A DNA stretch of 64,000 nt from a virus. A program made the position numbers and the translations under genes. The stretch lies in UHGV virus genome UHGV-0218015; one strand, 5' to 3'. The first letter of the stretch is position 1, and each line of letters starts with the position of its first letter. The notes under the pieces are model-generated. The model ran no database searches and was not told the origin of the DNA. It was given only the letters and a program-made list of their open reading frames with translations. Below, one piece after another: positions 8,816 through 50,090 of the stretch.

Positions 8816-9343
8816 ATGGCATATCGTGTCGATTTAACGAAAGCACCTAAACAAATTTTAGTAGACCGGATTAACTACGTATTTAGTCTATCCTATACTG
8901 CTGATAACATCGAGTTTAACGCAAACGGCGTTCAACCACTAACTTTAGCAGAACGCCAACGTTACGGACTAGAATCAAAGGTTGCTGCCGTCTTCCGTAA
9001 CGGCGTTGTCGGTAACCAGGAATTCATTTTAACTCGCGTTGATTTGGCAACGTTCTTGGCCGATGAACCGGTGAGTGTACCGAAAGGCGCAGTAACGTCC
9101 AGCGAAGAGTTGGCTGATTATATCGTCGCACAAACAGGGCTCGACCTGCGTGCCGACGACATTATGATTGAGCCGATTTCAGAGGAACTGGATTCTTATG
9201 ATGTTCGTCTCGTCCCGAATCATTTGTCTTTTAAAGGAACGATTCCGGTCGTATTTACTGATTCCACTCCACGCAAATTGGCGTCTCTTGTGACGAAATT
9301 GGCGTTGGATGGGTTCCGCCCAGGAGAATTAATCAATGTCTAA
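8816..9343 (+). CDS. hypothetical protein (175 aa)
   Basis: ORF 8 nt after previous stop, same-strand array. Confidence 0.5.
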   Translation: MAYRVDLTKAPKQILVDRINYVFSLSYTADNIEFNANGVQPLTLAERQRYGLESKVAAVFRNGVVGNQEFILTRVDLATFLADEPVSVPKGAVTSSEELADYIVAQTGLDLRADDIMIEPISEELDSYDVRLVPNHLSFKGTIPVVFTDSTPRKLASLVTKLALDGFRPGELINV

Positions 9344-27896: not shown

Positions 27897-28090
27897 AAAT
27901 TTGGTTACCGATTCTAGTATTTATCCTTATCGCAGGGGCACTCGCAAGTGCTGAGTTAGACAACCGTACTTTAGAAACGAAACGTGAGTTGTATCAGGAC
28001 TGTATAAAGGATTATACTCCAGGTACAGAGCTTCATGCACAGGCTGTAAGAAGCTGTGCGTTGATGGCTGAAACGCAGACTCGTTCCTAA
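27893..28090 (+). CDS. small single-pass membrane protein (65 aa), paralog of previous gene
   Basis: TM segment IWLPILVFILIAGALASA; YQDCIKD...SCALMAE parallels YRECMSD...ACTEYA. Confidence 0.45.
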   Translation: MKIWLPILVFILIAGALASAELDNRTLETKRELYQDCIKDYTPGTELHAQAVRSCALMAETQTRS

Positions 28091-28464
28091 TGCGTATCTG
28101 GACGCTACAACTCGCTAAGTGGCGGTTAGCTAAGCAGAAAGGATTTCACGCGGTGGATATCACCGTGAAGTCAGGGCGAAAGGAACTCGCCCCCGACTGG
28201 GATTTCCTAATGGCGTATAAAAATTCTGCCCAAGACGCTGCCGCTGAGCGTGAATACACGATAAAGTATTTGTACAAACTCGAACGACTGTTAGATGCCG
28301 ATGCCGAAGTTTTAGTGTCGTTACTCAGACACGAAGACCTGGTTTTGATGTGTTATTGTCCTGCAGGTAAGTTTTGTCATCGTCACCTACTGGCGAACAA
28401 ACTTCAAGAAGTGGGAATGACGTTCGGTATCGATGTTGAGTTATGTGGAGAACTAACGGTCTGA
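28090..28464 (+). CDS. hypothetical protein (124 aa) with C-Y-C...C-H-R motif
   Basis: ORF coupled to upstream stop; MCYCPAGKFCHRHLL Cys/His cluster. Confidence 0.45.
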   Translation: MRIWTLQLAKWRLAKQKGFHAVDITVKSGRKELAPDWDFLMAYKNSAQDAAAEREYTIKYLYKLERLLDADAEVLVSLLRHEDLVLMCYCPAGKFCHRHLLANKLQEVGMTFGIDVELCGELTV

Positions 28465-28490
28465 TTTGATATTTAGCTGTAAAATGACTG

Positions 28491-28538
28491 TCTACCGCCC
28501 GATTCTATGGGCGGTAGATGTTTTTTATTTTTTTTTGA
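28491..28538 (+). terminator. rho-independent terminator
   Basis: Stem TCTACCGCCC / GATTCTAT / GGGCGGTAGA followed by TGTTTTTTATTTTTTTTT. Confidence 0.8.
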
Positions 28539-28552
28539 TCTGGGAGGCTATA

Positions 28553-29113
28553 GTGGCCACATACGTACCTGATTTAAGTCTGTCCTCAGCCGAATTGGTG
28601 GTCGCTTTAATCAACCACGATAACGGTTCACGGTTGTCTCTAAGCGAAATTCGTATTAGCAACACTATGGCAAACCTGTCCCCGACTACGTCGCGTCGTA
28701 ACACACTGACAGAGATTACAAAAATCAGGAAACCTGATGGTGCTTCTGTAGTTGTTTATTACGACCGCTTGGATGCGGACAAAGTGTTAGCGTCCGAACC
28801 TATTTTGATTTCGTTAGATGGTACCGAAGACAACCTTCGTGACATTTTAGGTGTTGTAAATGAATTCTGCGGAACGAACTTACAACCCGAGGATTTACAT
28901 GCTTCAGATATCACTTTAGGTAACGATCCTATTGCTGTCAACGTTGCTGACGATTCTCCAGCGTGGGTGAATGCGTTTATGGTGACGTTATTTGATAAAA
29001 CTGAACGGGCATTAGCAAACGAAGAAGATGCAATCTTCTGTATTGGTGACGATGCTGTTCTTACATTTGAGGTTCCAGATGGAGACTCCGCTGAAGAAAA
29101 CCCGGCTACATGA
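28553..29113 (+). CDS. tail-fibre-associated accessory protein (about 186 aa; GTG start after GGGAGG), paralog of 35204..35716
   Basis: VATYVPDLSLSSAELVVALINHDNG...VVYYDRL parallels MEKFTPDLSLTSLNMVISLVNHD...QIYYNRL; sits directly upstream of the fibre gene. Confidence 0.5.
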   Translation: MATYVPDLSLSSAELVVALINHDNGSRLSLSEIRISNTMANLSPTTSRRNTLTEITKIRKPDGASVVVYYDRLDADKVLASEPILISLDGTEDNLRDILGVVNEFCGTNLQPEDLHASDITLGNDPIAVNVADDSPAWVNAFMVTLFDKTERALANEEDAIFCIGDDAVLTFEVPDGDSAEENPAT

Positions 29114-29318
29114 ACTTGACGGTTTTTCTGGTAATGGAGGCCAAAGCAAACGTTTATCAAGACTTAGTAAACCCAGATCATGAGAACGCGGAGTTGGGCA
29201 TCACTTTCACGTTAGAAGATGATGGATTAAAACCAGTATAATAATCCGCTTATAAAAATGTTGGGGGAGGTGTTTTACCTTCCCAGATCTTTTAGCTCCA
29301 GATAGAGAATTAAATATC

Positions 29319-32300
29319 ATGGCTAAAGCGGTAAAGAAAATACGTTTACACGACTTACATCCGTACACCGGGGATATCGGTGAAGGCGTTTTACTTTTTT
29401 CGAAAGACGAAAAAGATTATAAGTTACCAGTCCGCGAGATCGTTGCGGACATTGACACCGTCAGAAGTGCGGTTGCTGATGCACAAACGGCTGCGGCCAA
29501 ATCACAACAGTCCGCAACAGAAGCTACGAAAGCTAAAGATTTAGCAGAAACAGCGAAGCAACAGACCACCACTTTAGCTTCCACAGTTAATGAGCAAGCG
29601 GGAACCGTCGCCACTAAAACTGCGGAGGTTAACAAAAAACACGCTGAAGTTTTAGCAGCGAAAACTGCCGTAGATACTGTTTCACAATCAGTAAATGAGA
29701 AGGCTCAAGCTGTCGCCGCAAGCGAACAATCTGTGACAGCTGTAGCGGCTGATGTAACTAAGAAAGCAGAAACGGTTACGCAACGGGCCGGACAGGTTCA
29801 ACAGACCGCTACCAGTATCGCAAATACTGCGGCTTCAATTGAGGCCAGTAAGGGCGCGGTGGAGAAGGTTGCTGCGCAGGTTACGAAAGATAAAGAAAGC
29901 TCAGAAGGCGCAGCTACACGCTCGGAGTCAGCCGCTCTGCGTGCGGAGAAAATCGCTGCACAGGGTTTAGTTGACGCTAGTACGACCGGTAAAGGTATCG
30001 TTAAACTTAACAATACCCTGACTAGCGAATCCGTGACGGAGGCTGCCACACCGTCCACGGTTAAACAGCTGAACGACGAATTACAGTTAAAAGCCGATAA
30101 ACATTCGCCGAATTTTACGGGTAACCCGACATCACCAACGCCTCCAAAGGACTCGAATGACACGAGCATCTCCACAACGGCCTGGGTGCGTGCTGCTATC
30201 GCGGAATTGGTTGGTTCTTCACCTGAGACGTTAGATACCTTAGCGGAATTAGCTACGGCGTTAGGTAATGACCCTAACTTCGCAACAACGATTACTGAGA
30301 AACTTGCACAGAAGCAACCTATCAGTCCACTACTTACTGCTATTGCCGCAGTCACAACCGCAGCAAACAAGCTCCCTTATTTCACTGGCACTAATAAAGT
30401 CGGGTTAACTGACTTTACAGAAACCGCCAGAACCTTGTTAGCAAAAGGGACAACTGCGGATATCATCAATTTCTTGGGATTAAAAGCCACTGTAGATAAA
30501 GCGAACTCTGCGTTACAGAAAAACTCTAACGGTGCTGATATCCCCAATAAAGAAACCTTTGCTCGCAATATTGGTCTATCTCCTGATACCTATCTGCGTT
30601 TCCGTGGTGAAATGCCCGCAGATGCTGATATTAACACATTTGCTCCAGATGCCAATTACACAGGAACATGGTCCAAGTCGACATCAACAAACGCATCGAT
30701 AGCAAAACACTTCCCGGAAGACGGTGCGGTAGGTTATCTAGAAGTGTATAAAGCGGGCAACTACAGTGGAGCGCAACGTTTTACCTGCCGTAATGGTAAC
30801 GTGTACAACCGCATGTTGTCAGCCGCGTGGAACGGAACTAATGGCCCGTGGTCACCGTGGAGAATGGTAACTACAGGTGTACGCCCGTTATCTACATCGA
30901 TCGATCTGAACTCCTTAGGCGGCGCTGAGCACATGGGTAACTGGCGTAACTCGTCCAGTTCGTTAGCGGTGTTCGACAGACATTATCCTGAAGAGGGCGG
31001 TAATGCGCAAGGCGTATTAGAAGTCATGGAAGGCGGTCTTTATGGACGTTTACAACGTTACACCACTCGTCGTGGTACGATGTATGTCCGTGGTTTGACT
31101 GCGACTTGGGATTCGTCTAATCCGCAGTGGGAAGATTGGATTCAGGTTGGGTATCAGGTAGACGGTGCCTACTATAAGGGTAGCTTTAACGACTTAACTA
31201 AACCGGGTCGCTTTAGTGTTACCGGCGAGGCTACAGACGGTCCGTTAACAGACTCTGCTGGCGCAACCTTGCTAGGCGTTTGCGAAGTTACCTTACGCTT
31301 AGACGGTTCAGGTGTTGAACAAAATTATACCACATACGGTACAGGCGCAACTTCGAAAGGTCGCAAGTTCCAACGAATTCGTACAGGAAATGCCTGGAGC
31401 GAATGGCGAGAGATTTTCACATCCTATTCACTCCCGTTGGCTTTAGGGATCGGTGGGGTTGCTGCTAAGGTAGATCCGTTAGACTGGCAAACCTTCGACT
31501 TCGTTCCTGGCCAGATGATAAGTACACCATTGAATACCATGAAAAACATTCCTGCGGGAATGGATTGGGGTGTTATCGACGGTAACTTGGTTACTATTCT
31601 TGTAGGGGCGTCGGAGGACACCGGTACTGGCCGGAGTATGTTGGTCTGGCGTGGTACAGTGTCTACTGCTAACTATCGCTTCTTTGCTGTTCGCGTCGCT
31701 GGTGAAAAGGGTAAACGTACTATTACTAGCCGCCAGATGCCCGTATTGAATGCAGCGCATACGTGGGCAGAAAAACAGACCTTTGCAAAAGGGTTATCAG
31801 GTGAGTTAACAGGCAATGCTGCTACGGCAACGAAACTGAAAACAGCCCGTTTAATCGGCGGTGTAAGTTTCGACGGTAGCGGAGACATTAGCCTCCCTGG
31901 TGTAAACCAACAGGGTAATCAAAACACCTCTGGGAACGCGGGAACCGCAACCAAATTACAAACGGCTCGAAACATCAACGGTGTGAAATTTGATGGGTCT
32001 AGAGACATCAATATCAACACGTTGGTAGGACGTGGACGTGTTACTGCACTGACTGGATCAAACAAAGGTACACCCGGTATTCAGATGTACGAAGTTTACA
32101 ATAACGGTTATCCAACCGCTTATGGTAACTTACTGCATTTGGGCGGTTCTGCTGCGCTAGGCGAAGGGGAACTGTTAATCGGATGGTCGGGGACGAGCGG
32201 TGCGCACGCACCCGTTTATATTCGTAGTCGACGTGATACTGCTGATGCGCCGTGGTCAGATTGGGCACAAGTTTATACTGCCCGTGATAGCATTCCTGGT

Positions 32301-33758
32301 GTAAATGCCACAGGTAATCAGGATACTACCGGCAACGCCGCTACCGCGACGAAACTGAAAACCGCTCGCAGGATCGGAGGCGTTAGCTTTGACGGTACAG
32401 GTGATATCAATTTACCGGGCGTTAACCAGCAAGGCAACCAGAATACGACAGGTAATGCAGCGACCGCTACTAAGTTACAAACCGCACGTAAGATCGGCGG
32501 TGTGGTGTTCGATGGGACAAAAGACGTTAATCTTCCTGGTGTAAACCAAACCGGTAACCAATCGACTACGGGGAATGCGGCGACAGCGACTAAGCTACAG
32601 ACTGCTCGAAATATAGGTGGCGTAGCTTTTGATGGTACTAAAGACATCAGTTTACCTGGAGTAAACCAAACAGGGAATCAGTCGACCACCGGAAACGCAG
32701 CCACGGCAACAAAGTTGCAAACCGCAAGAACCATCAATGGTATTGCGTTTGATGGCACTAGAAATATATCGTTAGGGCCAGCCGAAATAGGTTGTCCGGC
32801 ATCACCTAGTGGTTGGTTAGAAACTGGCGCTAATGGCGGTGCAATAACTACAGCACAGCTAGTGACGTTATTGAAAAATAACGGCGCATTTACCACAAGA
32901 TCGTGGGTTGCTCGCTGTGCGTGGGCTTATGCCGCCAGTGCGTCCATACCTCACAGCGAGACGGGTTGTGGTGTCATTCCGTTAGCTGGGGCCGTTATAG
33001 AAGTCATTAGTAACGGCAACAGCACAAACAACTACACGATCCGTATAACGACCGCCACAACGACGAGCGTCGGCGGAGCACTCACTAATGCGGAGTTTAT
33101 CTACGTATTTAACGGCGATGGATACTCACCAGGCTGGCGTCGTGCTTACAATACGAGAAACAAGCCAACTGCTGCGGAAGTGGGCGCGTTACCGTCAGGG
33201 GGCGGTACTGTAGGCGGTGATTTAACCGTTAATGGTAAATTGGCCACTAAATACCCTGATTTTCGAATCGCTTACGGTACCTACGGTTTTATTTTACGTA
33301 ACGACGGTGCCAATACCTATTTCTTAGTAACCGACGCCGGACAAGCCGCAGCGGGTTCCTGGAACGGATTACGCCCGTTGTCTTTTAATAATTCTAACGG
33401 CCAAGTAAACTTTGGACATAACGTTACTGGCAACGGTAACGGTTCGTTTAACGACGTACAGATTCGTTCTGACCGTCGTAACAAACGTAATCTGGTGAAG
33501 CTGGATAAAGCTTTGGATCGGTTAGAGTTACTAACCGGTTATTTGTACGAAATTCAGCATCCTGATGACGGTTGGCAGACTTCTGTAGGTCTAATTGCTC
33601 AGGACGCATTAGAAGCGTTACCTGAACTTGTGTCAGAGGACGACGATGCCATTTCAGGCGAAAAACGTTTACGTCTAAATTACAATGGCGTTATTGCGCT
33701 GTTAGTAGAGGGTATGAAGTCTCTTCGCCGAGAGCTTAAAGAACTCAAGGGGAATTAA
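29319..33758 (+). CDS. long tail fibre protein (1479 aa) with tandem fibre repeats and C-terminal intramolecular chaperone (peptidase S74) domain
   Basis: About six 38-aa repeats GNAATATKLxTAR-IGGV-FDG--DI-LPGVNQ-GNQ; C-terminal SDRRNKRNL...GLIAQDALEALPELV...LNYNGVIALLVEGMKSLRRELKELK matches the S74 autoproteolytic chaperone of endosialidase-type fibres. Confidence 0.85.
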   Translation: MAKAVKKIRLHDLHPYTGDIGEGVLLFSKDEKDYKLPVREIVADIDTVRSAVADAQTAAAKSQQSATEATKAKDLAETAKQQTTTLASTVNEQAGTVATKTAEVNKKHAEVLAAKTAVDTVSQSVNEKAQAVAASEQSVTAVAADVTKKAETVTQRAGQVQQTATSIANTAASIEASKGAVEKVAAQVTKDKESSEGAATRSESAALRAEKIAAQGLVDASTTGKGIVKLNNTLTSESVTEAATPSTVKQLNDELQLKADKHSPNFTGNPTSPTPPKDSNDTSISTTAWVRAAIAELVGSSPETLDTLAELATALGNDPNFATTITEKLAQKQPISPLLTAIAAVTTAANKLPYFTGTNKVGLTDFTETARTLLAKGTTADIINFLGLKATVDKANSALQKNSNGADIPNKETFARNIGLSPDTYLRFRGEMPADADINTFAPDANYTGTWSKSTSTNASIAKHFPEDGAVGYLEVYKAGNYSGAQRFTCRNGNVYNRMLSAAWNGTNGPWSPWRMVTTGVRPLSTSIDLNSLGGAEHMGNWRNSSSSLAVFDRHYPEEGGNAQGVLEVMEGGLYGRLQRYTTRRGTMYVRGLTATWDSSNPQWEDWIQVGYQVDGAYYKGSFNDLTKPGRFSVTGEATDGPLTDSAGATLLGVCEVTLRLDGSGVEQNYTTYGTGATSKGRKFQRIRTGNAWSEWREIFTSYSLPLALGIGGVAAKVDPLDWQTFDFVPGQMISTPLNTMKNIPAGMDWGVIDGNLVTILVGASEDTGTGRSMLVWRGTVSTANYRFFAVRVAGEKGKRTITSRQMPVLNAAHTWAEKQTFAKGLSGELTGNAATATKLKTARLIGGVSFDGSGDISLPGVNQQGNQNTSGNAGTATKLQTARNINGVKFDGSRDININTLVGRGRVTALTGSNKGTPGIQMYEVYNNGYPTAYGNLLHLGGSAALGEGELLIGWSGTSGAHAPVYIRSRRDTADAPWSDWAQVYTARDSIPGVNATGNQDTTGNAATATKLKTARRIGGVSFDGTGDINLPGVNQQGNQNTTGNAATATKLQTARKIGGVVFDGTKDVNLPGVNQTGNQSTTGNAATATKLQTARNIGGVAFDGTKDISLPGVNQTGNQSTTGNAATATKLQTARTINGIAFDGTRNISLGPAEIGCPASPSGWLETGANGGAITTAQLVTLLKNNGAFTTRSWVARCAWAYAASASIPHSETGCGVIPLAGAVIEVISNGNSTNNYTIRITTATTTSVGGALTNAEFIYVFNGDGYSPGWRRAYNTRNKPTAAEVGALPSGGGTVGGDLTVNGKLATKYPDFRIAYGTYGFILRNDGANTYFLVTDAGQAAAGSWNGLRPLSFNNSNGQVNFGHNVTGNGNGSFNDVQIRSDRRNKRNLVKLDKALDRLELLTGYLYEIQHPDDGWQTSVGLIAQDALEALPELVSEDDDAISGEKRLRLNYNGVIALLVEGMKSLRRELKELKGN
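31790..32770 (+). repeat. in-frame tandem coding repeats (about 114 nt units, about 6 copies) inside the tail fibre gene
   Basis: Repeated ACGAAACTGAAAAC/ACTAAGTTACAAACCGC... units encoding NAATATKLQTAR-GGV-FDG. Confidence 0.8.
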
Positions 33759-33762
33759 AGAT

Positions 33763-33790
33763 AGGGGGAGTAATCCCCCTAATTTAGTTT
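33763..33790 (+). terminator. putative terminator hairpin (weak T-run)
   Basis: Stem AGGGGGA / GTAA / TCCCCCT followed by AATTTAGTTT. Confidence 0.4.
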
Positions 33791-33799
33791 GGAGGATTT

Positions 33800-34345
33800 A
33801 TGGGGGTAGCATCCGGCTGGGTTGGAAGCTCAGCAAAGGCAGTAACCGGTCAGGAGTGGATGAGTGTGGCAGGTAATAAGCTTAAACTGAGCACGCCATT
33901 TAACATGTCGCAGATGGTCGGGCGTAGCGTAGAGGATCTTAAACTCGTTGTAGGCCGATCAACCTATGTTGTTTTGGTGCAGGCTACGAACACGCAGTGG
34001 GTTCCTATTACAAATACGTATGGGGGGTATTCGAACAACTCTACAACAACGGGTGCTGGTTCTACAGTATCGAATCGTGTGCAAACACAAAATGCGGCCG
34101 GTTCGGTGTCAGGTTCGATCTTGGGTTGTAGCGTCACACATCTTAGCCAAGTACAAAATACTGGTATTATCTACATGGCCCTAACCAATGGACCAAATCA
34201 GAATATTACGCTTTCGTTTAACGGAACGAAGATTACTTTTCTACCGTACTCCTACAGTAACGGCGTCCGGCGCTATGAGGCTAAGACGGCAACCAACTGG
34301 TTATTTAATCAGAACGGTGCAACAATTTCAATAAGTGTAGTCTAA
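33800..34345 (+). CDS. tail-fibre-module protein (181 aa), paralog of 34599..35105; possible distal adhesin
   Basis: N-terminus MGVASGWVGSSAKAVTGQEWMSVAGNKLKLSTPFNMSQMVGRS shared with the downstream paralog. Confidence 0.5.
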   Translation: MGVASGWVGSSAKAVTGQEWMSVAGNKLKLSTPFNMSQMVGRSVEDLKLVVGRSTYVVLVQATNTQWVPITNTYGGYSNNSTTTGAGSTVSNRVQTQNAAGSVSGSILGCSVTHLSQVQNTGIIYMALTNGPNQNITLSFNGTKITFLPYSYSNGVRRYEAKTATNWLFNQNGATISISVV

Positions 34346-34355
34346 GGACAGAAAG

Positions 34356-34586
34356 ATGTTAAGAAAAGTTTTACTGGGTTTCGCATTGCTTACAGTAAGT
34401 GGATGTCAACAACTACCCGAACCTGTATGTTACGGCACAGCTAAGCTGGGTAATGAAGAGACTACGATCAATATTTTCGACGTAAAAAAGCAGGGCAGAT
34501 ACACACTTTATAAAGCTGATCATCATTATAATTGGCGTTGGGTTGGGCGTGGTGCTTTCGATTCAATAACATGTAGAAAATCTTAA
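34356..34586 (+). CDS. small lipoprotein (76 aa), candidate Llp-like superinfection-exclusion or receptor-blocking lipoprotein
   Basis: Signal peptide with lipobox LTVSGC (MLRKVLLGFALLTVSG-C); located inside the fibre module. Confidence 0.55.
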   Translation: MLRKVLLGFALLTVSGCQQLPEPVCYGTAKLGNEETTINIFDVKKQGRYTLYKADHHYNWRWVGRGAFDSITCRKS

Positions 34587-34598
34587 CAGGAGATCGCG

Positions 34599-35105
34599 AT
34601 GGGGGGGGTAACCGGTTCGTGGGTCGGTTCTTCGGCCAAGAACGAAACGGGCGAACAATGGATGAGCGCTGCTGGTAGTAAATTAGGATTGGGTAGACCT
34701 TTTATGATGAGTCAAATGGTGGGACGATCTATGGGCTGTAAAATTGCAACCGCTGCATATAGCGATTCTTTAGGTAAGAAATGGGGCGCAGTAGGACCAA
34801 GCTGGCCGTTAAACCAGAAAAATCAGGGAACCATTCAAAACGCGGGTAACTGCGGGGTGGGAACTTTAGTAGGTATTGAGTTACAGTTAACGACGATAGT
34901 TGCCAACGCAAAGCCTACTTTAGCGGTTTACTTACAAGGAGGCAGAGCCTCTAACATTACCGTAAATTTAGGTGGTAACACCTGCGCGCTGGCCTATCAG
35001 CAGGTTATTAACGGACAGCATTATTACTGGACTAATAACATCAGCGCTGCGTTCCAAAACGTGATGAAATCGACAGGCGCACTGCGTGATTTGAGAATTA
35101 GCTAA
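34599..35105 (+). CDS. tail-fibre-module protein (168 aa), paralog of 33800..34345; start codon fused to a G8 tract
   Basis: MGGVTGSWVGSSAKNETGEQWMSAAGSKL...MSQMVGRS; ATG followed by GGGGGGG (34601-34608). Confidence 0.5.
   Translation: MGGVTGSWVGSSAKNETGEQWMSAAGSKLGLGRPFMMSQMVGRSMGCKIATAAYSDSLGKKWGAVGPSWPLNQKNQGTIQNAGNCGVGTLVGIELQLTTIVANAKPTLAVYLQGGRASNITVNLGGNTCALAYQQVINGQHYYWTNNISAAFQNVMKSTGALRDLRIS
34601..34608. repeat. G8 homopolymer inside the start of gene 34599
   Basis: ATGGGGGGGGTAACC read directly. Confidence 0.9.
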
Positions 35106-35139
35106 TTATTTTCAACTGAAAGCGGTTGAAAATAATCGT

Positions 35140-35149
35140 GGGGGGGGGG
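35140..35149. repeat. G10 homopolymer in the intergenic region upstream of gene 35204
   Basis: AATCGTGGGGGGGGGGTGAATG read directly. Confidence 0.9.
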
Positions 35150-35203
35150 TGAATGTTTTTTAGTCAATATTTTATGACCCCCAACCGTAGGAGGTAAACA
35201 TAC

Positions 35204-35716
35204 GTGGAAAAATTCACACCAGATTTATCACTAACTTCACTTAACATGGTTATTTCACTGGTTAACCATGACCTCCAACTTGACTTGCAAGAGAACGAGG
35301 TTGAAGTCAGTGACGTAAAAACCAGTGATGAAATGGATCGTGACTCCACTGCCATTGTAAAGATTAAACGTCCTGGAAACAGAACGTTGCAAATCTACTA
35401 CAACCGTTTAACCGCAGAGCGGTGGTTAAACCAACAACCTATTCTGGTAAAAGTAAGAGGTGAAGGGTTTAATGCACACGATCTTATCGAATCCGTCAAT
35501 GCCGTTTGTGGTGCTAACTTACAAACCGACGATTTAACCGACCAGTCGTTCACGGTAGGTAAAGACGCGGTAACGCTTAGCATCGCTCCGAATTCCATCG
35601 CTTATAAAGGACAGTTCTCCGTGGTGGTTTTCGGCCCAGATGAAACACCGTGTGGCATCGGTGATGATTCTGTCGTGTTGACGTTTGACAATAAAATCTT
35701 AACTTTTGGAGAGTAG
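35204..35716 (+). CDS. tail-fibre-associated accessory protein (170 aa, GTG start), paralog of 28553..29113
   Basis: TAGGAGGTAAACATAC-GTG RBS; sequence parallels the 28553 gene; directly upstream of the tailspike gene. Confidence 0.5.
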   Translation: MEKFTPDLSLTSLNMVISLVNHDLQLDLQENEVEVSDVKTSDEMDRDSTAIVKIKRPGNRTLQIYYNRLTAERWLNQQPILVKVRGEGFNAHDLIESVNAVCGANLQTDDLTDQSFTVGKDAVTLSIAPNSIAYKGQFSVVVFGPDETPCGIGDDSVVLTFDNKILTFGE

Positions 35717-35719
35717 TAG

Positions 35720-37840
35720 ATGAGTCAGCCAATTGGAAAGAAACGTATCCATGAACTCGACAATTTCTCTGGCGATCTCAAAGGTGCGTTAGTTCTTCTT
35801 TCTAAGGAAGAAAAAGAATATAAAATTGATATTGCAAAACTTCAGGGCACGACGGAGCCGGAGTATTACTTCGTGATTCCTATAGCCGGGCAATCTAATG
35901 CGATGAGTTATGGTGAAGGGTTGCCTCTACCGGCGACGTTGGACGCTCCCGATCCGCGAATTAAACAGATGGCGCGCCGTGCGAAGGTAACGCCTAATGG
36001 GGCTGATTGTAAATATAACGACGTCATTCCAGCGGATCACTGTCTGCACGACGTGCAAGATATGTCCAAATACTCGCATCCCAATGCCAATTTGAGCAAA
36101 GGTGAATACGGATGTGTGGGTCAAGGTCTACATATCGCGAAGCGTCTTCTCCCGTATATTCCTAAGAACGCCGGTATCTTACTAGTACCCTGCGCACGCG
36201 GCGGTTCTGCTTTCACGGGTGGTGCAGAAGGTACCTTCGATGAAGCCACAGGAGCCACTGAGTCGTCAATGCTATGGGGGGTGGAGAAACCGCTTTATAA
36301 AGATTTAGTTAGCCGGACCAAAAAAGCTCTAGAAGTTAATCCTAAAAATAAACTCTTGGCTGTAGTGTGGATGCAGGGAGAGTATGATCTGACTAAAGTA
36401 CAATACGCACAACAACCAGCGTTATTTAACGCAATGGTAGAGCGTTTCCGAACTGATCTCTCTGACCATCTCTCTCAGATGCCCGAGTACGACACCGCCG
36501 AAGTACCATGGATCTGCGGGGACACTACCTATTATTGGAAGGAAAAATATCCTGCCCAATATGAAACCGTATACGGTAATTATCGTAACAATGAACAAAA
36601 AAATATCTTTTTTGTTCCATTCATGTACGACGATAATGGCCAACGTGTACCGACTAATGATCCCACTGACGATCCTGATATCACTGGTGCGGCCTATTAC
36701 GGTGCTGCCTCCCGTACTGTTAAAAACTGGACGTCTGAAACAAGGAATAGCCATTTCAGTTCTTGGGCACGACGCGGTATTATCTCAGAGAGAATAGCTG
36801 CCGAGATATTATCAAGAACAGCGATTGGTGCAATGTTCCTGACGAAGAACGACACTAAGAGCTCCAAAGACAATAAGAATGTGGTAAGAAGCTATACCCC
36901 ATTAGTAGAGTCTGTGGGTTATAACGGACGTCGTGGGGATGGTTCCCTGAAAGGGCAAGGTTGGAACAATATCGTTGATTGTAACGTAACCGTGCAAGAT
37001 TCTGAGGATGGAAACGGGCATTTCGTCGAATTAAGAAAGGCTGTAAAGATGAAACCTTGGAATGTAACTAAGTCAATGACATCTGCTGCGGACATGATAC
37101 GTTACGGTGGACGTCTGACCGTTACTTTTAGACTAAAAGGTGATTTAGCAGCAGATCGTTTCGGATTAGGACTTTATTGGCGTATTTCCGCGTCCGACCT
37201 ACCTTCTGGTACTACATTTGCTGACGCTGGTGTGGCTGAGACGAACCCGTACCTAATGTCTTTTTTCTTACAGACCGACGCTACGAATCTTAATCTGATG
37301 CATCATAAAAAGCAAAATGCGAAATTAGGAACTTTTGGTGCGTACGATAATAACTGGCATACGCTTGAAATCATTTATCCTGGTGCCAATAAAACCACAG
37401 TCACACCTGTGCTGGACGGTACGAATGGTACTCCATTTGATCTGGCGAACAGTCCAGCTAAGACCGATTTGAACGAATTGGTTCTGACGGATATTACGAA
37501 AGTTACTGCCTATGATATCGATATTTCTAAGTTTGAGATCTCGGTCAATCGTGATTCTGGTAGCATAGTGTTATCTGAGGAAGATGTGTCGTCTTATGTG
37601 TATTTCCCACCCACCAACCGTGGCGGCCAACTTACTATTCCTGATCTAGAATATAGTGTGGGCAGAAATATTCAGATCGTGGCAAATAAGGCTGGTAAGA
37701 TCACCGTTAAACCGGAAAATTCAAACGTTCTCATCACTCCAAAGAGTGGGACAGAAGGTCTTGCCAAACCCATTGATACCAATGAAAGTATTACGCTAAT
37801 GCAGATTGGTTCCGATGGTAAAAGCTGGGTAGTTATTTAA
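35720..37840 (+). CDS. tailspike/tail fibre (706 aa) with putative SASA/SGNH-type carbohydrate esterase domain
   Basis: N-terminus MSQPIGKKRIHELDNFSGDLKGALVLLSKEEKEYK parallels the 1479-aa fibre N-terminus; FVIPIAGQSNAMSYGEG resembles the GQSN(M) active-site motif of sialate O-acetylesterase-like esterases. Confidence 0.6.
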   Translation: MSQPIGKKRIHELDNFSGDLKGALVLLSKEEKEYKIDIAKLQGTTEPEYYFVIPIAGQSNAMSYGEGLPLPATLDAPDPRIKQMARRAKVTPNGADCKYNDVIPADHCLHDVQDMSKYSHPNANLSKGEYGCVGQGLHIAKRLLPYIPKNAGILLVPCARGGSAFTGGAEGTFDEATGATESSMLWGVEKPLYKDLVSRTKKALEVNPKNKLLAVVWMQGEYDLTKVQYAQQPALFNAMVERFRTDLSDHLSQMPEYDTAEVPWICGDTTYYWKEKYPAQYETVYGNYRNNEQKNIFFVPFMYDDNGQRVPTNDPTDDPDITGAAYYGAASRTVKNWTSETRNSHFSSWARRGIISERIAAEILSRTAIGAMFLTKNDTKSSKDNKNVVRSYTPLVESVGYNGRRGDGSLKGQGWNNIVDCNVTVQDSEDGNGHFVELRKAVKMKPWNVTKSMTSAADMIRYGGRLTVTFRLKGDLAADRFGLGLYWRISASDLPSGTTFADAGVAETNPYLMSFFLQTDATNLNLMHHKKQNAKLGTFGAYDNNWHTLEIIYPGANKTTVTPVLDGTNGTPFDLANSPAKTDLNELVLTDITKVTAYDIDISKFEISVNRDSGSIVLSEEDVSSYVYFPPTNRGGQLTIPDLEYSVGRNIQIVANKAGKITVKPENSNVLITPKSGTEGLAKPIDTNESITLMQIGSDGKSWVVI

Positions 37841-37845
37841 TTTAA

Positions 37846-37889
37846 ACCGTAGGATGGACTTAGTCCATCCTACGGTTTTTATATTTTTT
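37846..37889 (+). terminator. rho-independent terminator
   Basis: Long palindromic stem CCGTAGGATGGAC...GTCCATCCTACGG followed by TTTTTATATTTTTT. Confidence 0.85.
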
Positions 37890-45508: not shown

Positions 45509-46357
45509 ATGTCTCTTACGTCAAAACAGAAACTGCTAAAACTCATCAACACTGAAAACAATATTGTTCCGCCATTGACCTTCAGTGATGTTGATATCGG
45601 CGAACCTACTGGTACTGGGGTTGATACCCAGGTGGTTCTGACTTCTAAACTCAAAGGCGATGAGTCTACTACTTTAACGGTGACTTACCATCGTCGTAAT
45701 TTGCCCGAATACCTAACAGGTGAGTTGGTATTCGGTAACGACGGTGTTGTAACCGCCTCAGATTTGCTTAACGCAATCAACGCAAAATACGATTTAAATA
45801 TTCTGCCATCGGATATCGTTGATGCGAAAGTTGAAGGTAAAACCCACCAACTTACCGCTAACGAGAAATCTTACGAGTGGTGTGGCGAAGTGACGCTTAC
45901 GCTACGCGATCCTATTGATCTGGCTAAATTGCTACCTGTTACTCAATTAGAAAACCTGGTAGAGTATCCGTCCACTAAGAAAGGTAACGCTGCGGTTTAT
46001 TCTTACCCAATTGACTTCACCGCAGAAAAAGATTACCTTGATCCAATTACCATCAACGGCACCGTAGACTTAGTAGAGTTAGCTACTAAACTGACTAACG
46101 TTGTTGATGAGAAATGGGTAAGCGTACCTAAGAACGCTGCTAATAACTTGTTCGGTGCTAAGGTTATCTACGATGGCCCTACCGCAGGTTTCGAAGGCGC
46201 AAATGCGAAGTACACGCGTGTGCTGGTACTCGCCCTAAGCGGTATGTGTTCTAACCTGACCGGTAAACTGTTAATTCACTTTAACGGAACCGATCGTCCG
46301 AAGTCGAAGATTGAATTAGCCAAGACTAATTCGGTCTTACCGGGATTCTTAGATTAA
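45509..46357 (+). CDS. member 1 of a four-gene paralog family (282 aa), unknown function, possibly virion-associated
   Basis: N-terminus SKQKLLKLINTEN...LTFSDVDIGEPTG parallels 46371, 49515 and 50113 products. Confidence 0.55.
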   Translation: MSLTSKQKLLKLINTENNIVPPLTFSDVDIGEPTGTGVDTQVVLTSKLKGDESTTLTVTYHRRNLPEYLTGELVFGNDGVVTASDLLNAINAKYDLNILPSDIVDAKVEGKTHQLTANEKSYEWCGEVTLTLRDPIDLAKLLPVTQLENLVEYPSTKKGNAAVYSYPIDFTAEKDYLDPITINGTVDLVELATKLTNVVDEKWVSVPKNAANNLFGAKVIYDGPTAGFEGANAKYTRVLVLALSGMCSNLTGKLLIHFNGTDRPKSKIELAKTNSVLPGFLD

Positions 46358-46370
46358 GAGGATTACAGTA

Positions 46371-46847
46371 ATGACCAGTCAAGAAACTATTTTCGACCTT
46401 ATTAAAAAGGCTAACCCAGACGCCGAGCTCGACACCGCCAAAGTCACATTGGGTGAGCCCGTCGTAAGTACCGGTACGTACAACACCGAAATTACGGTTG
46501 TGCCGGTTAAAAATCTCGGTTATGTTAATAAGCAAACGTTCCAGTATAACCGCATTGATGCAGGTTTGTATTTCCTCAACGTATTGCCGAAACTGTTAGT
46601 TGAGACAGCAACCACGACTGCGGACCTGCTGCCTGTAATTAACGAGCAGTATGGCTTAACCCTTACCGAAGACGATGTGTGGGTAGAGCAGGTTGGTGCG
46701 TTGCCGCTAGACGGCAGTGCAATCGAGCACGGTATTTTCTTCCGCCCCGAGTGTCTAACCTGGGTCGGTGGTTTTACAGTGCGTGTTGCGCGTAAACCGT
46801 CTGTCGAGACACCGCCAGCTAAGCCATCGCGCGCTAAGAAGAAATAA
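46371..46847 (+). CDS. member 2 of paralog family (158 aa)
   Basis: TIFDLIKKANPDAELDTAKVTLGEPVV parallels family N-termini; GAGGATTACAGTA-ATG. Confidence 0.55.
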   Translation: MTSQETIFDLIKKANPDAELDTAKVTLGEPVVSTGTYNTEITVVPVKNLGYVNKQTFQYNRIDAGLYFLNVLPKLLVETATTTADLLPVINEQYGLTLTEDDVWVEQVGALPLDGSAIEHGIFFRPECLTWVGGFTVRVARKPSVETPPAKPSRAKKK

Positions 46848-47601: not shown

Positions 47602-47616
47602 GGGAAGGTGTGGGTA

Positions 47617-50052: not shown

Positions 50053-50090
50053 GGGGGGGGGTGGTAACCTCCCCCGATATTTCTTTAACT
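50053..50090 (+). terminator. terminator-like hairpin containing a G9 tract
   Basis: GGGGGGGGGTGGTAACCTCCCCC hairpin followed by GATATTTCTTTAACTTTCATTTT. Confidence 0.5.

What the first reader, a model, noticed from the sequence alone, without database searches (positions are those of the whole stretch)
28553..35716. Duplicated [accessory gene - fibre gene] cassette in the tail fibre module
Each fibre gene (29319 and 35720) is immediately preceded by a paralogous 170-190-aa gene (28553..29113 and 35204..35716; conserved PDLSL(S/T)S...V(A/S)L(I/V)NHD...YYxRL). Between the two cassettes sit two further paralogs (33800..34345 and 34599..35105) and a lipoprotein gene. This suggests modular duplication and divergence of receptor-binding units, with the small proteins as fibre-specific assembly factors or distal adhesins.
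Basis: seen in the sequence. Interest (0 to 1): 0.45.

Follow-up and report, generated by a model that had tools for sequence, protein, structure and literature searches.

The report
Modular receptor-binding locus, jumbo phage
This stretch is the host-recognition gene cluster of an undeposited giant phage of E. coli and Salmonella, related to SPN3US, in which proteins sharing a 40-residue attachment tag carry a fibre, adhesins and an esterase borrowed from unrelated phages; the parts are known, but their arrangement and an apparent on/off switch are new.

Summary
28553-29113 (A1) and 35204-35716 (A2) are paralogs (34% identity, E=2e-33), and each lies just upstream of a fibre-type gene.

- **A1/A2:** members of DUF7941, a virion family of phiKZ-like phages, and orthologous to SPN3US gp122. 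They match no chaperone or adhesin family.
- **The two "further paralogs":** a different family, Gp38_N tip adhesins. They flank a Cor superinfection-exclusion lipoprotein.
- **Shared tag:** what unites the two large genes is a ~43-aa N-terminal anchor, also found on SPN3US gp123. Only about 17 protein clusters in 1.84 billion carry it.
- **Cargo behind the tag:** here it is a long fibre whose distal half, autochaperone, adhesin and Cor match SSU5 and Stx phages, and a NanS-p-type sialate O-acetylesterase.
- **Relatives:** they have two A genes but one to four anchor genes. The A1-fibre adjacency here comes from a 3.3-kb deletion that left a scar.
- **Extra finding:** a poly-G run at the start of adhesin B2 is 8, 9 or 10 bases long in near-identical genomes, so the gene is in or out of frame.

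Best model: the anchor is a virion-docking handle for swappable receptor-binding proteins, with A1/A2 as the probable DUF7941 docking partners. That last step is inferred.

The parts
28489..28536 (+). Strong terminator-like hairpin plus a T9 run; upstream boundary of the locus. It lies inside the TTG-extended ORF, which argues for the 28553 start of A1.
   Evidence: 13-bp stem, 7 GC pairs; T9, length varies among contigs
28553..29113 (+). A1: 186-aa DUF7941 protein of the gp122 subfamily (N-terminal globular domain plus a short tail ending in IGDDAVLTF)
   Evidence: Pfam PF25613 65.1 bits against a cutoff of 27; phrog_2935; 46% identity to SPN3US gp122; family profile hits PDB 9xqd PHIKZ127 at E=3e-11
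29079..29183 (+). Relic ORF (METPLKKTRLHELDGFSG...): the first ~20 codons of a gp123-like anchor gene fused out of frame to the 3' end of a gp124-like gene. This is the scar of a ~3.3-kb deletion.
   Evidence: window 28900-29119 matches L017 10339-10558 (89.5%) and window 29140-29398 matches L017 13881-14142 (82.5%)
29319..33758 (+). Fibre 1 (1479 aa): anchor (aa 1-43), coiled-coil shaft, Phage_fiber_2 repeat, 40-aa repeats, Gp34_trimer domain, S74 intramolecular chaperone
   Evidence: distal part 40-73% identical to SSU5_021 and the last 110 aa 69% identical to Stx2-86 gp21
29319..29447 (+). N-anchor of fibre 1 (MAKAVKKIRLHDLHPYTGDIGEGVLLFSKDEKDYKLPVREI)
32454..32730 (+). 120-nt (40-aa) tandem repeats in the fibre 1 shaft. 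One unit is missing in some contigs, giving 1439 instead of 1479 aa.
33471..33755 (+). S74 autochaperone (aa 1385-1479), predicted to be cleaved off after Ser1384 (SDRRNK Ser-Lys dyad)
   Evidence: PF13884, aa 1384-1438
33800..34345 (+). B1: Gp38_N-type fibre-tip adhesin (181 aa), 69% identical to the Stx2-converting phage 86 'tail fiber adhesin'
   Evidence: (aa 1-48 match S16 gp38, PDB 6F45_D, E=9e-6)
34356..34586 (+). Cor-type superinfection-exclusion lipoprotein (76 aa, VSGC lipobox)
   Evidence: phrog_1119 E=1e-25; 62% identical to Stx2-86 Cor
34599..35105 (+). B2: second Gp38_N adhesin (168 aa), 59-63% identical to adhesins of O104:H4-type Stx phages and of phage-plasmid CMS-2020a
34601..34608 (+). 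Poly-G run directly after the ATG of B2. G8 is in frame; G9 and G10 in near-identical contigs destroy the Gp38_N domain.
35140..35149 (+). Intergenic poly-G (G10 here, G9-G13 among contigs), 55 nt upstream of A2 in a structured spacer. The tract is conserved in relatives.
35204..35716 (+). A2: 170-aa DUF7941 protein of the gp122 subfamily
   Evidence: Pfam 51.6 bits
35720..37840 (+). Fibre 2, really an anchor-tagged enzyme. Anchor aa 1-43; NanS-type SGNH esterase aa 45-364 (GQSN Ser59 and His345 present); NanS-p lectin-like domain aa 400-610; unassigned C-terminal domain aa 611-706.
   Evidence: 3PT5 E=3e-122; 6YP6 E=2e-38
37844..37878 (+). Strong terminator-like hairpin (16 bp); downstream boundary of the locus
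8816..9343 (+).
45509..46847 (+). Two more DUF7941 paralogs (282 aa full-length type; 158 aa). They correspond to the SPN3US gp138-154 'paralog family B' array.

Best explanation
The region 28.5-37.9 kb is the accessory receptor-binding-protein (RBP) locus of a ~225-kb SPN3US/Asesino-related jumbo phage that occurs in E. coli, Salmonella and Shigella samples.

**The handle.** Each RBP starts with the same ~43-residue N-terminal anchor (consensus M..a[VI]KK.R[LI]HEL..[YF].GD...gV.L.SKdEKEYK[LI]). The anchor acts as a virion-docking handle. Whatever lies behind it is exchangeable cargo.

**The cargo in this phage.**
1. A long trimeric fibre. Its distal half and S74 autochaperone come from the same pool as the fibres of SSU5 and Stx phages. 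After autocleavage at Ser1384, its tip is capped by one of two alternative Gp38_N adhesins, B1 or B2.
   - B1 travels with a Cor lipoprotein, which presumably blocks B1's outer-membrane receptor in the infected cell.
   - B2 is turned on or off by slippage of a poly-G run directly after its start codon.
2. A NanS-p-type sialate O-acetylesterase in which the capsid-binding DUF1737 domain of the Stx-phage enzyme has been replaced by the anchor.

**The small genes.** A1 and A2 are DUF7941 proteins: an N-terminal globular domain plus a short linker strand. The most likely role is as the virion-side partners that connect anchor-tagged RBPs to the DUF7941 and peripheral-baseplate network. They are not chaperones and not adhesins.

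**Shown:** the homologies, domain boundaries, synteny, deletion scars and poly-G polymorphism.
**Inferred:** that the anchor docks onto A1/A2, that B1 and B2 compete for one fibre tip, that Cor blocks B1's receptor, and that the poly-G variation is biological switching.
For: **The anchor is a modular handle**
- It heads both large genes here and SPN3US gp123.
- An exhaustive HMM search of 1.84 billion representatives finds about 17 clusters. All carry it at residues 1-43, with cargo of 133 to 1494 aa.
- The esterase body is 50% identical to Stx-phage NanS-p from residue 44 onward.
- In phi24B, the NanS-p N-terminal DUF1737 domain is the capsid-attachment domain. Here one attachment domain has replaced another.
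- SPN3US gp123 and gp124 are virion proteins not labelled as head proteins.

**A1/A2 as partner**
- Both are in Pfam DUF7941 well above cutoff.
- The family profile hits phiKZ gp127 (PDB 9xqd, E=3e-11). That protein terminates the gp139 band of each outer baseplate lobe.
- Goslar has DUF7941 modules fused to carbohydrate-binding, hydrolase and LRR domains, and its gp22 forms head-to-tail filaments.
- The gp122-type gene directly precedes an anchor gene, abutting or overlapping it, in SPN3US, Asesino and most of the ~220-230-kb relatives examined. Where it does not, a deletion scar or relic marks the lost anchor gene.
- A-type and anchor-type phylogenies agree.
- Both families are confined to the same clade.

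**Adhesins and Cor**
- Gp38_N at 72.7 and 67.1 bits, and a match to the S16 gp38 N-domain.
- The same order, fibre then adhesin then Cor, occurs in Stx2-86 and SSU5.
- Cor function is described in the literature.

**Poly-G switch**.
Against: - **SPN3US gp122**, the ortholog of A1, gave no peptides in wild-type virions and only trace peptides in one mutant preparation. gp123, of similar size, was seen in every sample.
- **SPN3US 'paralog family B'**, which is DUF7941, was assigned to the head because it is present in tailless particles. This conflicts with the baseplate-filament model of the Goslar preprint.
- **Stoichiometry is not 1:1.** Relatives have two A genes and one to four anchor genes. 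A genes also persist after their downstream partner has been deleted: A1 here, A2 in L025 and L045.
- **No sequence link between anchor and DUF7941 linker.** Profile-profile comparison found nothing.
- **No usable structure.** The AF2 model of A1 has pLDDT 53, and no complex prediction could be run.
- **The phylogenetic congruence is confounded.** Adjacent genes are co-inherited anyway.
- **Poly-G lengths come from assemblies, not reads.**
Confidence: 0.55

Rival explanations
1. A1/A2 are non-structural assembly factors for the anchor-bearing proteins. They would help the anchor fold, trimerise or dock, and then leave.
For: SPN3US gp122 was undetected in wild-type virions while gp123 and gp124 were detected. 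The A gene abuts or overlaps the anchor gene that follows it.
Against: - There is no match to any chaperone family: Caudo_TAP, DUF4376, or T4 gp38/gp57.
- The family is a virion family with a member resolved in the phiKZ baseplate.
- Fibre 1 already has an S74 autochaperone.
- Relatives place Caudo_TAP or DUF4376 genes downstream of their RBPs.
- A genes lie upstream of their supposed clients, which is unusual for fibre chaperones.
Confidence: 0.2
2. A1/A2 are ordinary members of the multi-copy DUF7941 virion family (head-internal or filament-cloud subunits) with no specific relation to the neighbouring RBPs. Adjacency would reflect only co-inheritance within a late-gene block.
For: - Five DUF7941 genes lie in this window, three of them away from any anchor gene.
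- SPN3US family B is present in tailless particles.
- A genes survive loss of their downstream neighbours.
- The count of A genes does not match the count of anchor genes.
Against: - The gp122 subfamily is a distinct clade. A1 and A2 find each other at E~1e-29 in phmmer, but the other window paralogs only at about 1e-4 to 1e-6.
- In deposited phage genomes outside this clade it is essentially single-copy: 30 places in 29 records.
- Wherever it was inspected, it sits directly before an anchor gene or the relic of one.
- The gp122 subfamily and the anchor are confined to the same clade, and the more distant KpGz_1 has DUF7941 genes but no anchor.
Confidence: 0.25
3. A1/A2 are distal adhesins sitting at the fibre tips.
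For: Their small size and position next to fibre genes.
Against: - That role is filled by the Gp38_N proteins B1 and B2.
- A1/A2 are well conserved within each type (76-93% among relatives), whereas adhesin C-termini are replaced wholesale.
- They belong to a baseplate-associated family.
Confidence: 0.03
4. The poly-G length differences at B2, and at the esterase junction in relatives, are sequencing or assembly artefacts rather than phase variation.
For: Homopolymers of 8-10 G are error-prone. Only assemblies were examined, not reads. The G8 tract is lineage-specific: other alleles start ATGGGGGTA or ATGGCGGT.
Against: - In 6 contigs x 20 kb, every other 1-nt indel lies in or just upstream of an intergenic spacer; none disrupts a confidently placed coding sequence.
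- A G9 run elsewhere (55514-55522) reads G9 in two assemblies whose B2 runs differ (G10 and G8). This rests on two samples, because those loci were retrieved by an exact product that fixes G9.
- B2 states do not follow SNP relatedness. The window's nearest neighbours are G9 and G10, while a distant contig is G8.
- The exact full-length product is found in 21 contigs, the truncated call in 89 blocks.
- An independent G9/G10 tract splits the esterase RBP at its anchor-cargo junction in relatives.
Confidence: 0.3

Closest known systems
SPN3US gp122-gp123-gp124 (Seoulvirus) and Asesino gp139-141
   Same: Orthologous unit: a gp122-type DUF7941 gene directly followed by a gene starting with the same ~43-aa anchor, in the same genomic neighbourhood with a DUF488 gene upstream.
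   Different: Those phages have one copy, the anchor sits on a 157-aa protein, and an anchor-less 1005-aa tail protein follows. Here there are two A genes. The gp123-like and gp124-like pair has been deleted, and the anchor is fused directly to a 1479-aa fibre and to a 706-aa esterase.
DUF7941 proteins of chimalliviruses (Goslar gp22/gp23 and others; phiKZ gp126/gp127)
   Same: Same Pfam family. A1/A2 have the N-terminal domain plus a short linker, like Goslar gp23. Their C-terminal IGDDAVLTF strand aligns with the linker motif of the full-length paralogs.
   Different: In Goslar the host-recognition domains are fused to DUF7941. Here they sit on separate proteins that carry a different N-terminal tag. 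The location of A1/A2 is untested, and the SPN3US ortholog was not seen in virions.
T2/S16-type long tail fibre gp37 with tip adhesin gp38
   Same: B1 and B2 carry the Gp38_N attachment domain (match to PDB 6F45 chain D residues 1-49) and lie directly downstream of the fibre gene.
   Different: The C-terminal domains are not the glycine-rich GP38 (PF05268) type; they belong to phrog_1121. The fibre ends in an S74 autochaperone, and there are two adhesin genes in tandem.
Fibre - adhesin - Cor modules of Stx2-converting phage 86 (gp21-gp23) and phage-plasmid SSU5 (021, 022, 025)
   Same: Same gene order. B1 is 69% identical to gp22, Cor 62%, the S74 domain 69%, and fibre segments are up to 73% identical to SSU5_021.
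   Different: Here the module is grafted onto a jumbo-myovirus anchor and has a second adhesin (B2, of the O104:H4 Stx-phage type) behind Cor.
NanS-p esterase gp84 of Stx phage phi24B (a capsid decoration protein)
   Same: Same catalytic and lectin-like domains at ~50% identity. Both are mounted on a virion through a small N-terminal domain.
   Different: The DUF1737 capsid-binding domain is replaced by the jumbo-phage anchor, and an extra ~95-aa C-terminal domain is added. The expected position is the tail or baseplate rather than the capsid facets.
Hypermutable poly-G tracts in receptor-binding genes of Campylobacter Fletchervirus phages (Sorensen et al. 2021, Cell Rep 35:109214; I saw only the citation)
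   Same: A homopolymeric G run inside an RBP gene whose length sets the reading frame.
   Different: The host group is different (Enterobacteriaceae) and so is the phage type (jumbo). The tract sits at the start codon or at the anchor-cargo joint. No phenotype has been shown.

Membership tests
DUF7941 (PF25613), for A1 and A2 | Match to the family HMM above the curated cutoff | tested here: met
   65.1 and 51.6 bits against a cutoff of 27; phrog_2935 at E=4e-26 and 5e-23
DUF7941 (PF25613), for A1 and A2 | Homology to a member located in a solved virion structure | tested here: met
   A profile of 12 family members hits PDB 9xqd chain 0 (PHIKZ127) at E=3e-11, residues 14-158. Its position in the baseplate lobe is described in PMC13250141.
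DUF7941 (PF25613), for A1 and A2 | N-terminal globular domain followed by a linker that docks head-to-tail onto another protomer | tested here: inconclusive
   The C-terminal IGDDAVLTF strand aligns with the linker motif of the long paralogs. The AF2 model was too poor to judge (pLDDT 53), and no multimer prediction was possible.
DUF7941 (PF25613), for A1 and A2 | Present in the virion (peripheral baseplate or filaments) | not testable with these tools
   The literature is mixed. SPN3US gp122 was not detected in wild-type virions. Family B was assigned to the head. phiKZ gp127 is in the baseplate.
Tail-fibre assembly chaperones (Caudo_TAP/Tfa, DUF4376, T4 gp38/gp57A), considered for A1/A2 | Sequence membership in a known chaperone family | tested here: not met
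   No such hit in Pfam or PHROGs
Tail-fibre assembly chaperones (Caudo_TAP/Tfa, DUF4376, T4 gp38/gp57A), considered for A1/A2 | Encoded immediately downstream of the client fibre gene | tested here: not met
   A1/A2 are upstream. In relatives the downstream slot holds Caudo_TAP or DUF4376 genes, and fibre 1 has its own S74 chaperone.
Gp38-type fibre-tip adhesins, for B1 and B2 | Gp38_N attachment domain at the N-terminus | tested here: met
   PF21721 at 72.7 and 67.1 bits against a cutoff of 25; 6F45_D residues 1-49 at E=9e-6
Gp38-type fibre-tip adhesins, for B1 and B2 | Gene directly downstream of the fibre gene, with a hypervariable C-terminal receptor domain | tested here: met
   Gene order. 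B1 and B2 share nothing beyond residue ~45. Alleles are swapped among relatives.
Gp38-type fibre-tip adhesins, for B1 and B2 | Glycine-rich GP38 (PF05268) receptor-binding domain as in T2 and S16 | tested here: not met
   No PF05268 hit for B1 or B2; they fall in phrog_1121. A 260-aa adhesin in relative L046 does carry PF05268.
Cor/Llp superinfection-exclusion lipoproteins | Family match, lipobox, and position next to the RBP gene | tested here: met
   phrog_1119 at E=1e-25; 62% identity to Stx2-86 Cor; LTVSGC lipobox. Receptor blocking itself cannot be tested here.
S74 intramolecular-chaperone fibres | Peptidase_S74 domain with a Ser-Lys dyad at the cleavage site | tested here: met
   PF13884 at aa 1384-1438; Ser1384 and Lys1389 in SDRRNK. 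Cleavage itself was not tested.
NanS / NanS-p sialate O-acetylesterases, for fibre 2 | SASA/SGNH catalytic domain with GQSN serine and a conserved histidine, plus the NanS-p C-terminal domain | tested here: met
   3PT5 at E=3e-122 (aa 45-364) and 6YP6 at E=2e-38 (aa 400-610). GQSN Ser59 and SHF His345 are conserved in the alignment.
NanS / NanS-p sialate O-acetylesterases, for fibre 2 | N-terminal DUF1737 capsid-binding domain of the Stx-phage enzymes | tested here: not met
   Similarity to NanS-p starts at about residue 44. The first 43 aa are the jumbo-phage anchor.
Phase-variable (contingency) gene, for B2 | Homopolymer inside the ORF whose length differs among otherwise near-identical genomes and sets the frame | tested here: met
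   G8, G9 and G10 in 10, 6 and 5 of 21 loci. Exact full-length product in 21 contigs against the truncated call in 89 blocks. States do not follow SNP distance.
Phase-variable (contingency) gene, for B2 | Mixed states within one population, and a host-range phenotype | not testable with these tools
   Only consensus assemblies were available.

The most novel reading that the evidence does not exclude
This clade of enterobacterial jumbo phages uses hypermutable poly-G runs placed at module boundaries as contingency switches, so that one genome produces virions with different receptor-binding sets (bet-hedging of host range). The runs sit at the start codon of adhesin B2 here, at the anchor-cargo joint of the esterase RBP in relatives, and in a conserved G9-G13 run upstream of A2. 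In parallel, the 43-aa anchor with gp122-type DUF7941 would be a plug-and-socket system that lets the phage mount RBP modules taken from Stx phages and SSU5-like phage-plasmids.
Probability: 0.35. Interest if true: 0.65.

Novelty: new variant of a known kind. Interest (0 to 1): 0.5.

Why it matters
Host recognition by phiKZ/SPN3US-type giant phages is poorly understood. The DUF7941 family was proposed as a host-recognition filament system only in 2026, and SPN3US proteomics assigns it to the head instead.

This locus offers a small, testable case. There are two DUF7941 proteins and a 43-residue tag shared by every accessory RBP of the clade. Binding assays or AF3 on these pairs could confirm or refute the socket idea.

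The locus also shows that a virulent jumbo myovirus draws RBP modules (fibre tip, Gp38_N adhesin, Cor, NanS-p esterase) from the same pool as temperate Stx podoviruses and SSU5 phage-plasmids. That is useful for predicting and engineering host range.

If the poly-G switching is real, it extends phage-encoded phase variation of RBPs beyond Campylobacter phages.

Tried and rejected
- **Anchor as a mimic of the DUF7941 linker strand.** An apparent 'GxAVxxF...EKDY' resemblance prompted a profile-profile comparison. hhalign gave probability 0.1% and E=0.46, so no support.
- **AF2 model of A1** with a 12-sequence alignment. Mean pLDDT was 53, so I ran no fold search on it.
- **Pseudo-complex of A2 plus the fibre 2 N-terminus,** using their shared reading frame.
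- **Word-indexed search with the anchor profile.** It returned only truncated fragments. The exhaustive search was needed.
- **Non-N-terminal hits in that search.** P0025, a Gram-positive surface protein with a repeated DGTVTFTKDGKEFKVP motif, I read as a false positive. P0036 and P0039 look like scrambled misassemblies.
- **Mirror-tree test of A against anchor.** The correlation is significant (r=0.77, Mantel p=0.0002). I discount it because adjacent genes are co-inherited, and because anchors diverge much more (51-54%) than the A proteins next to them (76-87%).
- **Sigma-70 promoter scan.** No enrichment: 12 sites against 14.2 expected. Such phages use their own RNA polymerases in any case.
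- **Megablast against deposited phages.** Essentially nothing found.
- **Search for the source project of the metagenome samples.** Nothing found.
- **Exact look-up of the 172-aa product next to the G9 run at 55514.** Not on record.

Full report
**1. What is in the sequence**

On the + strand, between two strong terminator-like hairpins (28489-28520 and 37844-37878), lie seven genes and one gene relic:

| Name | Coordinates | Size |
|---|---|---|
| A1 | 28553-29113 | 186 aa |
| Relic ORF | 29079-29183 | |
| Fibre 1 | 29319-33758 | 1479 aa |
| B1 | 33800-34345 | 181 aa |
| Lipoprotein | 34356-34586 | 76 aa |
| B2 | 34599-35105 | 168 aa |
| A2 | 35204-35716 | 170 aa |
| Fibre 2 | 35720-37840 | 706 aa |

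- A1 and A2 are real paralogs: 34% identity over 172 residues, E=2e-33.
- B1 and B2 are paralogs of each other only in their first 43 residues (67%, E=1e-16). They are unrelated to A1.
- The two large proteins share only their first 41 residues (34%, E=1e-6).

It merges two different small-protein families, though, and it misses the feature that actually links the two large genes.

**2. Source**

A2's exact sequence occurs in 192 blocks of public assemblies, many of them on contigs of about 225 kb. Related 151-225-kb viral contigs are in IMG/VR. A 221.9-kb circular 'plasmid' of a urinary E. coli isolate is a relative.

No deposited phage genome is close at the DNA level. At the protein level the nearest are the ~240-kb SPN3US (Seoulvirus) and Asesino (Erskinevirus) groups, with A1 44-48% identical to their proteins. 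The window therefore comes from an undeposited genus of SPN3US-like jumbo phages of Enterobacteriaceae.

**3. A1 and A2**

Both match Pfam DUF7941 well above threshold (65.1 and 51.6 bits against a cutoff of 27). They also match PHROG 2935, 'virion structural protein'.

Their SPN3US ortholog is gp122. It is directly followed by gp123, a 157-aa protein whose first ~43 residues are homologous to the N-termini of fibre 1 and fibre 2, and then by gp124, a 1005-aa tail-associated protein.

DUF7941 is multi-copy. The window holds three more members: 8816-9343, 45509-46357 and 46371-46847. By position and mass, the SPN3US array gp138-154 ('paralog family B') belongs to the same family.

A profile of the family hits phiKZ gp127 in the solved virion (PDB 9xqd, E=3e-11). 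gp127 terminates the gp139 band of each outer baseplate lobe (PMC13250141).

A 2026 preprint on phage Goslar reports that:
- DUF7941 is specific to chimalliviruses;
- Goslar gp22 forms filaments in vitro and is predicted to oligomerise head-to-tail, with the linker of one protomer docking on the N-domain of the next;
- three Goslar members carry carbohydrate-binding, hydrolase or LRR domains behind the DUF7941 module.

A1 and A2 have the N-domain plus a short tail. The conserved end of that tail (IGDDAVLTF/Y) aligns with the linker motif of the full-length paralogs.

Evidence against a structural role comes from SPN3US proteomics:
- gp122 gave no peptides in wild-type virions and only 3 peptides in one mutant preparation, whereas gp123 and gp124 were always found;
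- family B was assigned to the head because it is present in tailless particles.

**4. The N-terminal anchor is the unifying element**

Nine anchors from this clade, SPN3US and Asesino align with invariant M1, K7, R9, H11, L13, L26, S28 and Y34.

An exhaustive HMM search of 1.84 billion representative proteins found 23 hits. About 17 are genuine, and every one of those carries the motif at residues 1-43. Total lengths are 133, 154-156, 188, 205, 259, 273, 706, 710 and 1494 aa, plus truncated fragments. This is the signature of a docking handle with exchangeable cargo.

The anchor has no match among solved structures. It also shows no detectable profile similarity to DUF7941.

**5. The cargo**

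*Fibre 1* is a long fibre made of a coiled-coil shaft, a Phage_fiber_2 repeat, 40-aa repeats, a Gp34_trimer domain and a C-terminal Peptidase_S74 autochaperone. The expected Ser1384/Lys1389 dyad is present.
- Its distal parts are 40-73% identical to the fibre of phage-plasmid SSU5.
- Its last 110 residues are 69% identical to the fibre of Stx2-converting phage 86.
- In both of those phages the fibre gene is followed by a Gp38_N 'tail fiber adhesin' and a Cor gene.

*B1* is 69% identical to the Stx2-86 adhesin. The lipoprotein is 62% identical to that phage's Cor.

*B2* is 59-63% identical to the adhesins of O104:H4-type Stx phages and of phage-plasmid CMS-2020a.

Both B proteins carry the Gp38_N domain, which matches residues 1-49 of S16 gp38 (PDB 6F45). 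From my own knowledge (Dunne et al. 2018, Structure), that domain attaches gp38 to the tip of the gp37 fibre. Cor and Llp lipoproteins block the phage's own outer-membrane receptor, classically FhuA.

*Fibre 2* is not a fibre in the usual sense.
- Residues 45-364 match E. coli NanS (3PT5, E=3e-122) and residues 400-610 match NanS-p (6YP6, E=2e-38).
- It is 50% identical to the NanS-p esterase of Stx phages from residue ~44 onward. The GQSN serine and the SHF histidine are conserved.
- In phi24B, NanS-p (gp84) has just been shown to be a capsid-decoration protein held by its N-terminal DUF1737 domain.
- Here DUF1737 is replaced by the anchor. One attachment domain swapped for another is the best single argument that the anchor is a virion-attachment handle.

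**6. Comparative anatomy changes the 'duplicated cassette' picture**

Gene orders in relatives:
- **L017/L023:** A1 - gp123-like (153 aa, anchor) - gp124-like (1001 aa) - fibre 1 - adhesin - adhesin - A2 - 206-aa anchor protein.
- **L018/L025 and E. coli 98232:** the same front half with a 944-aa or 1001-aa gp124-like protein, but no intact anchor gene after A2 (scar, see below).
- **L042:** A1 - fibre 1 - adhesin - 273-aa anchor protein - DUF4376 - A2 - 709-aa protein in the anchor-RBP position (anchor not checked) - DUF4376.
- **L041:** A - 207-aa protein (206-aa type) - 710-aa anchor protein.
- **L046:** A2 - relic of the 206-aa gene - esterase RBP.

Across these there are two gp122-type genes per genome, but from one intact anchor gene (L025, E. 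coli 98232) up to three confirmed, or four if the unchecked 709-aa protein in L042 carries the tag.

The likely ancestral units are A1 - small anchor protein - large protein, as in SPN3US, and A2 - 206-aa anchor protein - large anchor RBP.

In the window lineage, and in L016, a clean ~3.3-kb deletion removed the gp123-like and gp124-like genes:
- window 28900-29119 aligns to L017 10339-10558;
- window 29140-29398 aligns to L017 13881-14142;
- a 34-codon relic remains (METPLKKTRLHELDGFSG..., 29079-29183).

A comparable scar follows A2 in L025 and in the E. coli replicon.

A2 and anchor N2 are the most divergent members of their respective families, and A1 groups with gp122. A and anchor therefore share a duplication history. 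A2 has no closer relative in any deposited phage.

**7. Poly-G**

B2 begins ATG-GGGGGGGG-TA (G8, reading MGGV...). In 21 loci from near-identical genomes the run is G8 (10 loci), G9 (6) or G10 (5). G9 and G10 put the Gp38_N domain out of frame.

- The exact full-length product is on record in 21 contigs. The truncated 124-aa call is on record in 89 blocks.
- In 6 contigs x 20 kb, every other single-base indel lies in or just upstream of an intergenic spacer.
- The run length does not track SNP distance.
- A G9 run at 55514-55522 reads G9 in two assemblies whose B2 runs differ (G10 and G8). This is a weak control, because those loci were retrieved by an exact product that fixes G9.
- A second run (G10 at 35140-35149, range G9-G13) lies in a structured spacer 55 nt upstream of A2. 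It is conserved in most relatives examined, though no run of 7 or more was found in L024.
- In relatives L046 and L048, a G9 run sits exactly at the anchor-cargo joint of the esterase RBP and splits it into 45-aa and 663-aa ORFs. A G10 product also exists, whereas the window reads QGTTEP with no run.

In both genes a G5 seems to have grown by one glycine codon to G8 and then slips. Phage-encoded poly-G switching of RBPs has been reported for Campylobacter phages; I saw only the citation. I rate biological switching at about 0.65-0.7 and artefact at about 0.3.

**8. Mechanism proposed**

*Shown:* families, domain limits, synteny, scars, polymorphism.

*Inferred:*
1. The anchor docks RBPs to the virion.
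2. The gp122-type DUF7941 proteins are the docking partners, linking RBPs into the DUF7941 and peripheral-baseplate network.
3. After S74 autocleavage, the fibre 1 tip binds either B1 or B2 through their shared Gp38_N domain, giving two specificities on one fibre type.
4. Cor protects infected cells and progeny from B1's receptor.
5. Poly-G slippage makes B2 optional.
6. The esterase de-O-acetylates a sialic-acid-type or other O-acetylated glycan on the host surface or in mucus.

Step 2 is the weakest. I give it about 0.45, against about 0.2 for a chaperone, about 0.25 for an unrelated DUF7941 subunit and about 0.03 for a distal adhesin; the remainder is unassigned.

**9. Verdict**

The finding is real. 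The interpretation needs correcting. All components belong to known families, but several things are new:
- two gp122/anchor units in one jumbo phage;
- a minimal shared handle carrying modules from Stx and SSU5 phages;
- a NanS-p esterase re-mounted through a different handle;
- tandem alternative tip adhesins with Cor;
- probable poly-G switches.

I class it as a new variant of a known kind, of moderate interest.

Noticed in passing
window 34601-34608 (start of B2): A poly-G run directly after the ATG is G8 here (in frame) but G9 or G10 in near-identical contigs. The exact full-length B2 product is in 21 contigs, and the truncated 124-aa call is in 89 blocks. It looks like a phase-variable adhesin.
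   Followed up: yes
window 35140-35149 (spacer between B2 and A2): An intergenic G10 run varies from G9 to G13 among contigs. It is conserved in relatives L022, L023, L025, L045 and L046; no run of 7 or more was found in L024. The spacer folds into two hairpins (z=-3.7). Its function is unknown; it may be regulatory for A2 and the downstream RBP.
   Followed up: partly
window 29079-29183 and 29114-29318: Relic of a gp123-like anchor gene fused to the 3' end of a gp124-like gene. This is the scar of a ~3.3-kb deletion, shared with contig L016. The genes are intact in L017, L018 and the E. coli 98232 replicon.
   Followed up: yes
L046 4127-4135 and L048 924-932 (relatives of this phage): A G9 run exactly at the anchor-cargo joint of the NanS-p-like RBP splits it into 45-aa and 663-aa ORFs. 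A G10 variant product (P0019) also exists. The window has no run at this position.
   Followed up: partly
window 55507-55716 and 55050-55568, minus strand (G9 at 55514-55522): A G9 run lies in the 62-nt overlap of a Cys-rich 69-aa ORF and a 172-aa ORF, inside a minus-strand block of mostly unannotated genes that also holds a radical-SAM gene and, further upstream, the gp168-like 1728-aa gene. A one-base change would fuse the two ORFs. The 69-aa product is on record in 59 blocks, so the G9 state is common.
   Followed up: partly
window 50053-50061: An intergenic G9 run is followed by CCCCC, forming a hairpin after the gene ending at 50045. G runs serving as hairpin arms recur in this genome.
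   Followed up: no
window 32454-32730: 120-nt tandem repeats in the fibre 1 shaft. One unit is absent in some contigs, giving 1439 instead of 1479 aa, so fibre length is polymorphic.
   Followed up: partly
L037 and L038 (contigs of the same phage): In some assemblies fibre 2 is called as 193 aa and fibre 1 as 557 aa. Other RBP genes are therefore also disrupted in part of the population. I did not examine the cause.
   Followed up: no
L045 = NZ_CP173450.1 (E. coli 98232, urine, Egypt): A 221.9-kb circular 'plasmid' in a complete E. coli genome is a relative of this jumbo phage (81.7% identity over 37% of the locus). This suggests episomal or carrier-state persistence in a clinical isolate.
   Followed up: partly
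window 46910-47500, 47608-48282 and 48260-48775: Directly after the DUF7941 pair at 45509-46847 come three genes: a GH108 plus PG_binding_3 muramidase-like protein, a DUF1353 protein (PHROG 'tail assembly chaperone') and a further endolysin-like protein.
   Followed up: no
window 28090-28464: A DUF488-N3a gene lies immediately upstream of A1. It is conserved in the same position in SPN3US and Asesino at 57% identity.
   Followed up: no
SPN3US literature against the Goslar preprint: DUF7941, which is SPN3US paralog family B, is assigned to the head in SPN3US because it is present in tailless particles. The Goslar and phiKZ work assigns it to baseplate-anchored filaments. The two views have not been reconciled.
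   Followed up: partly
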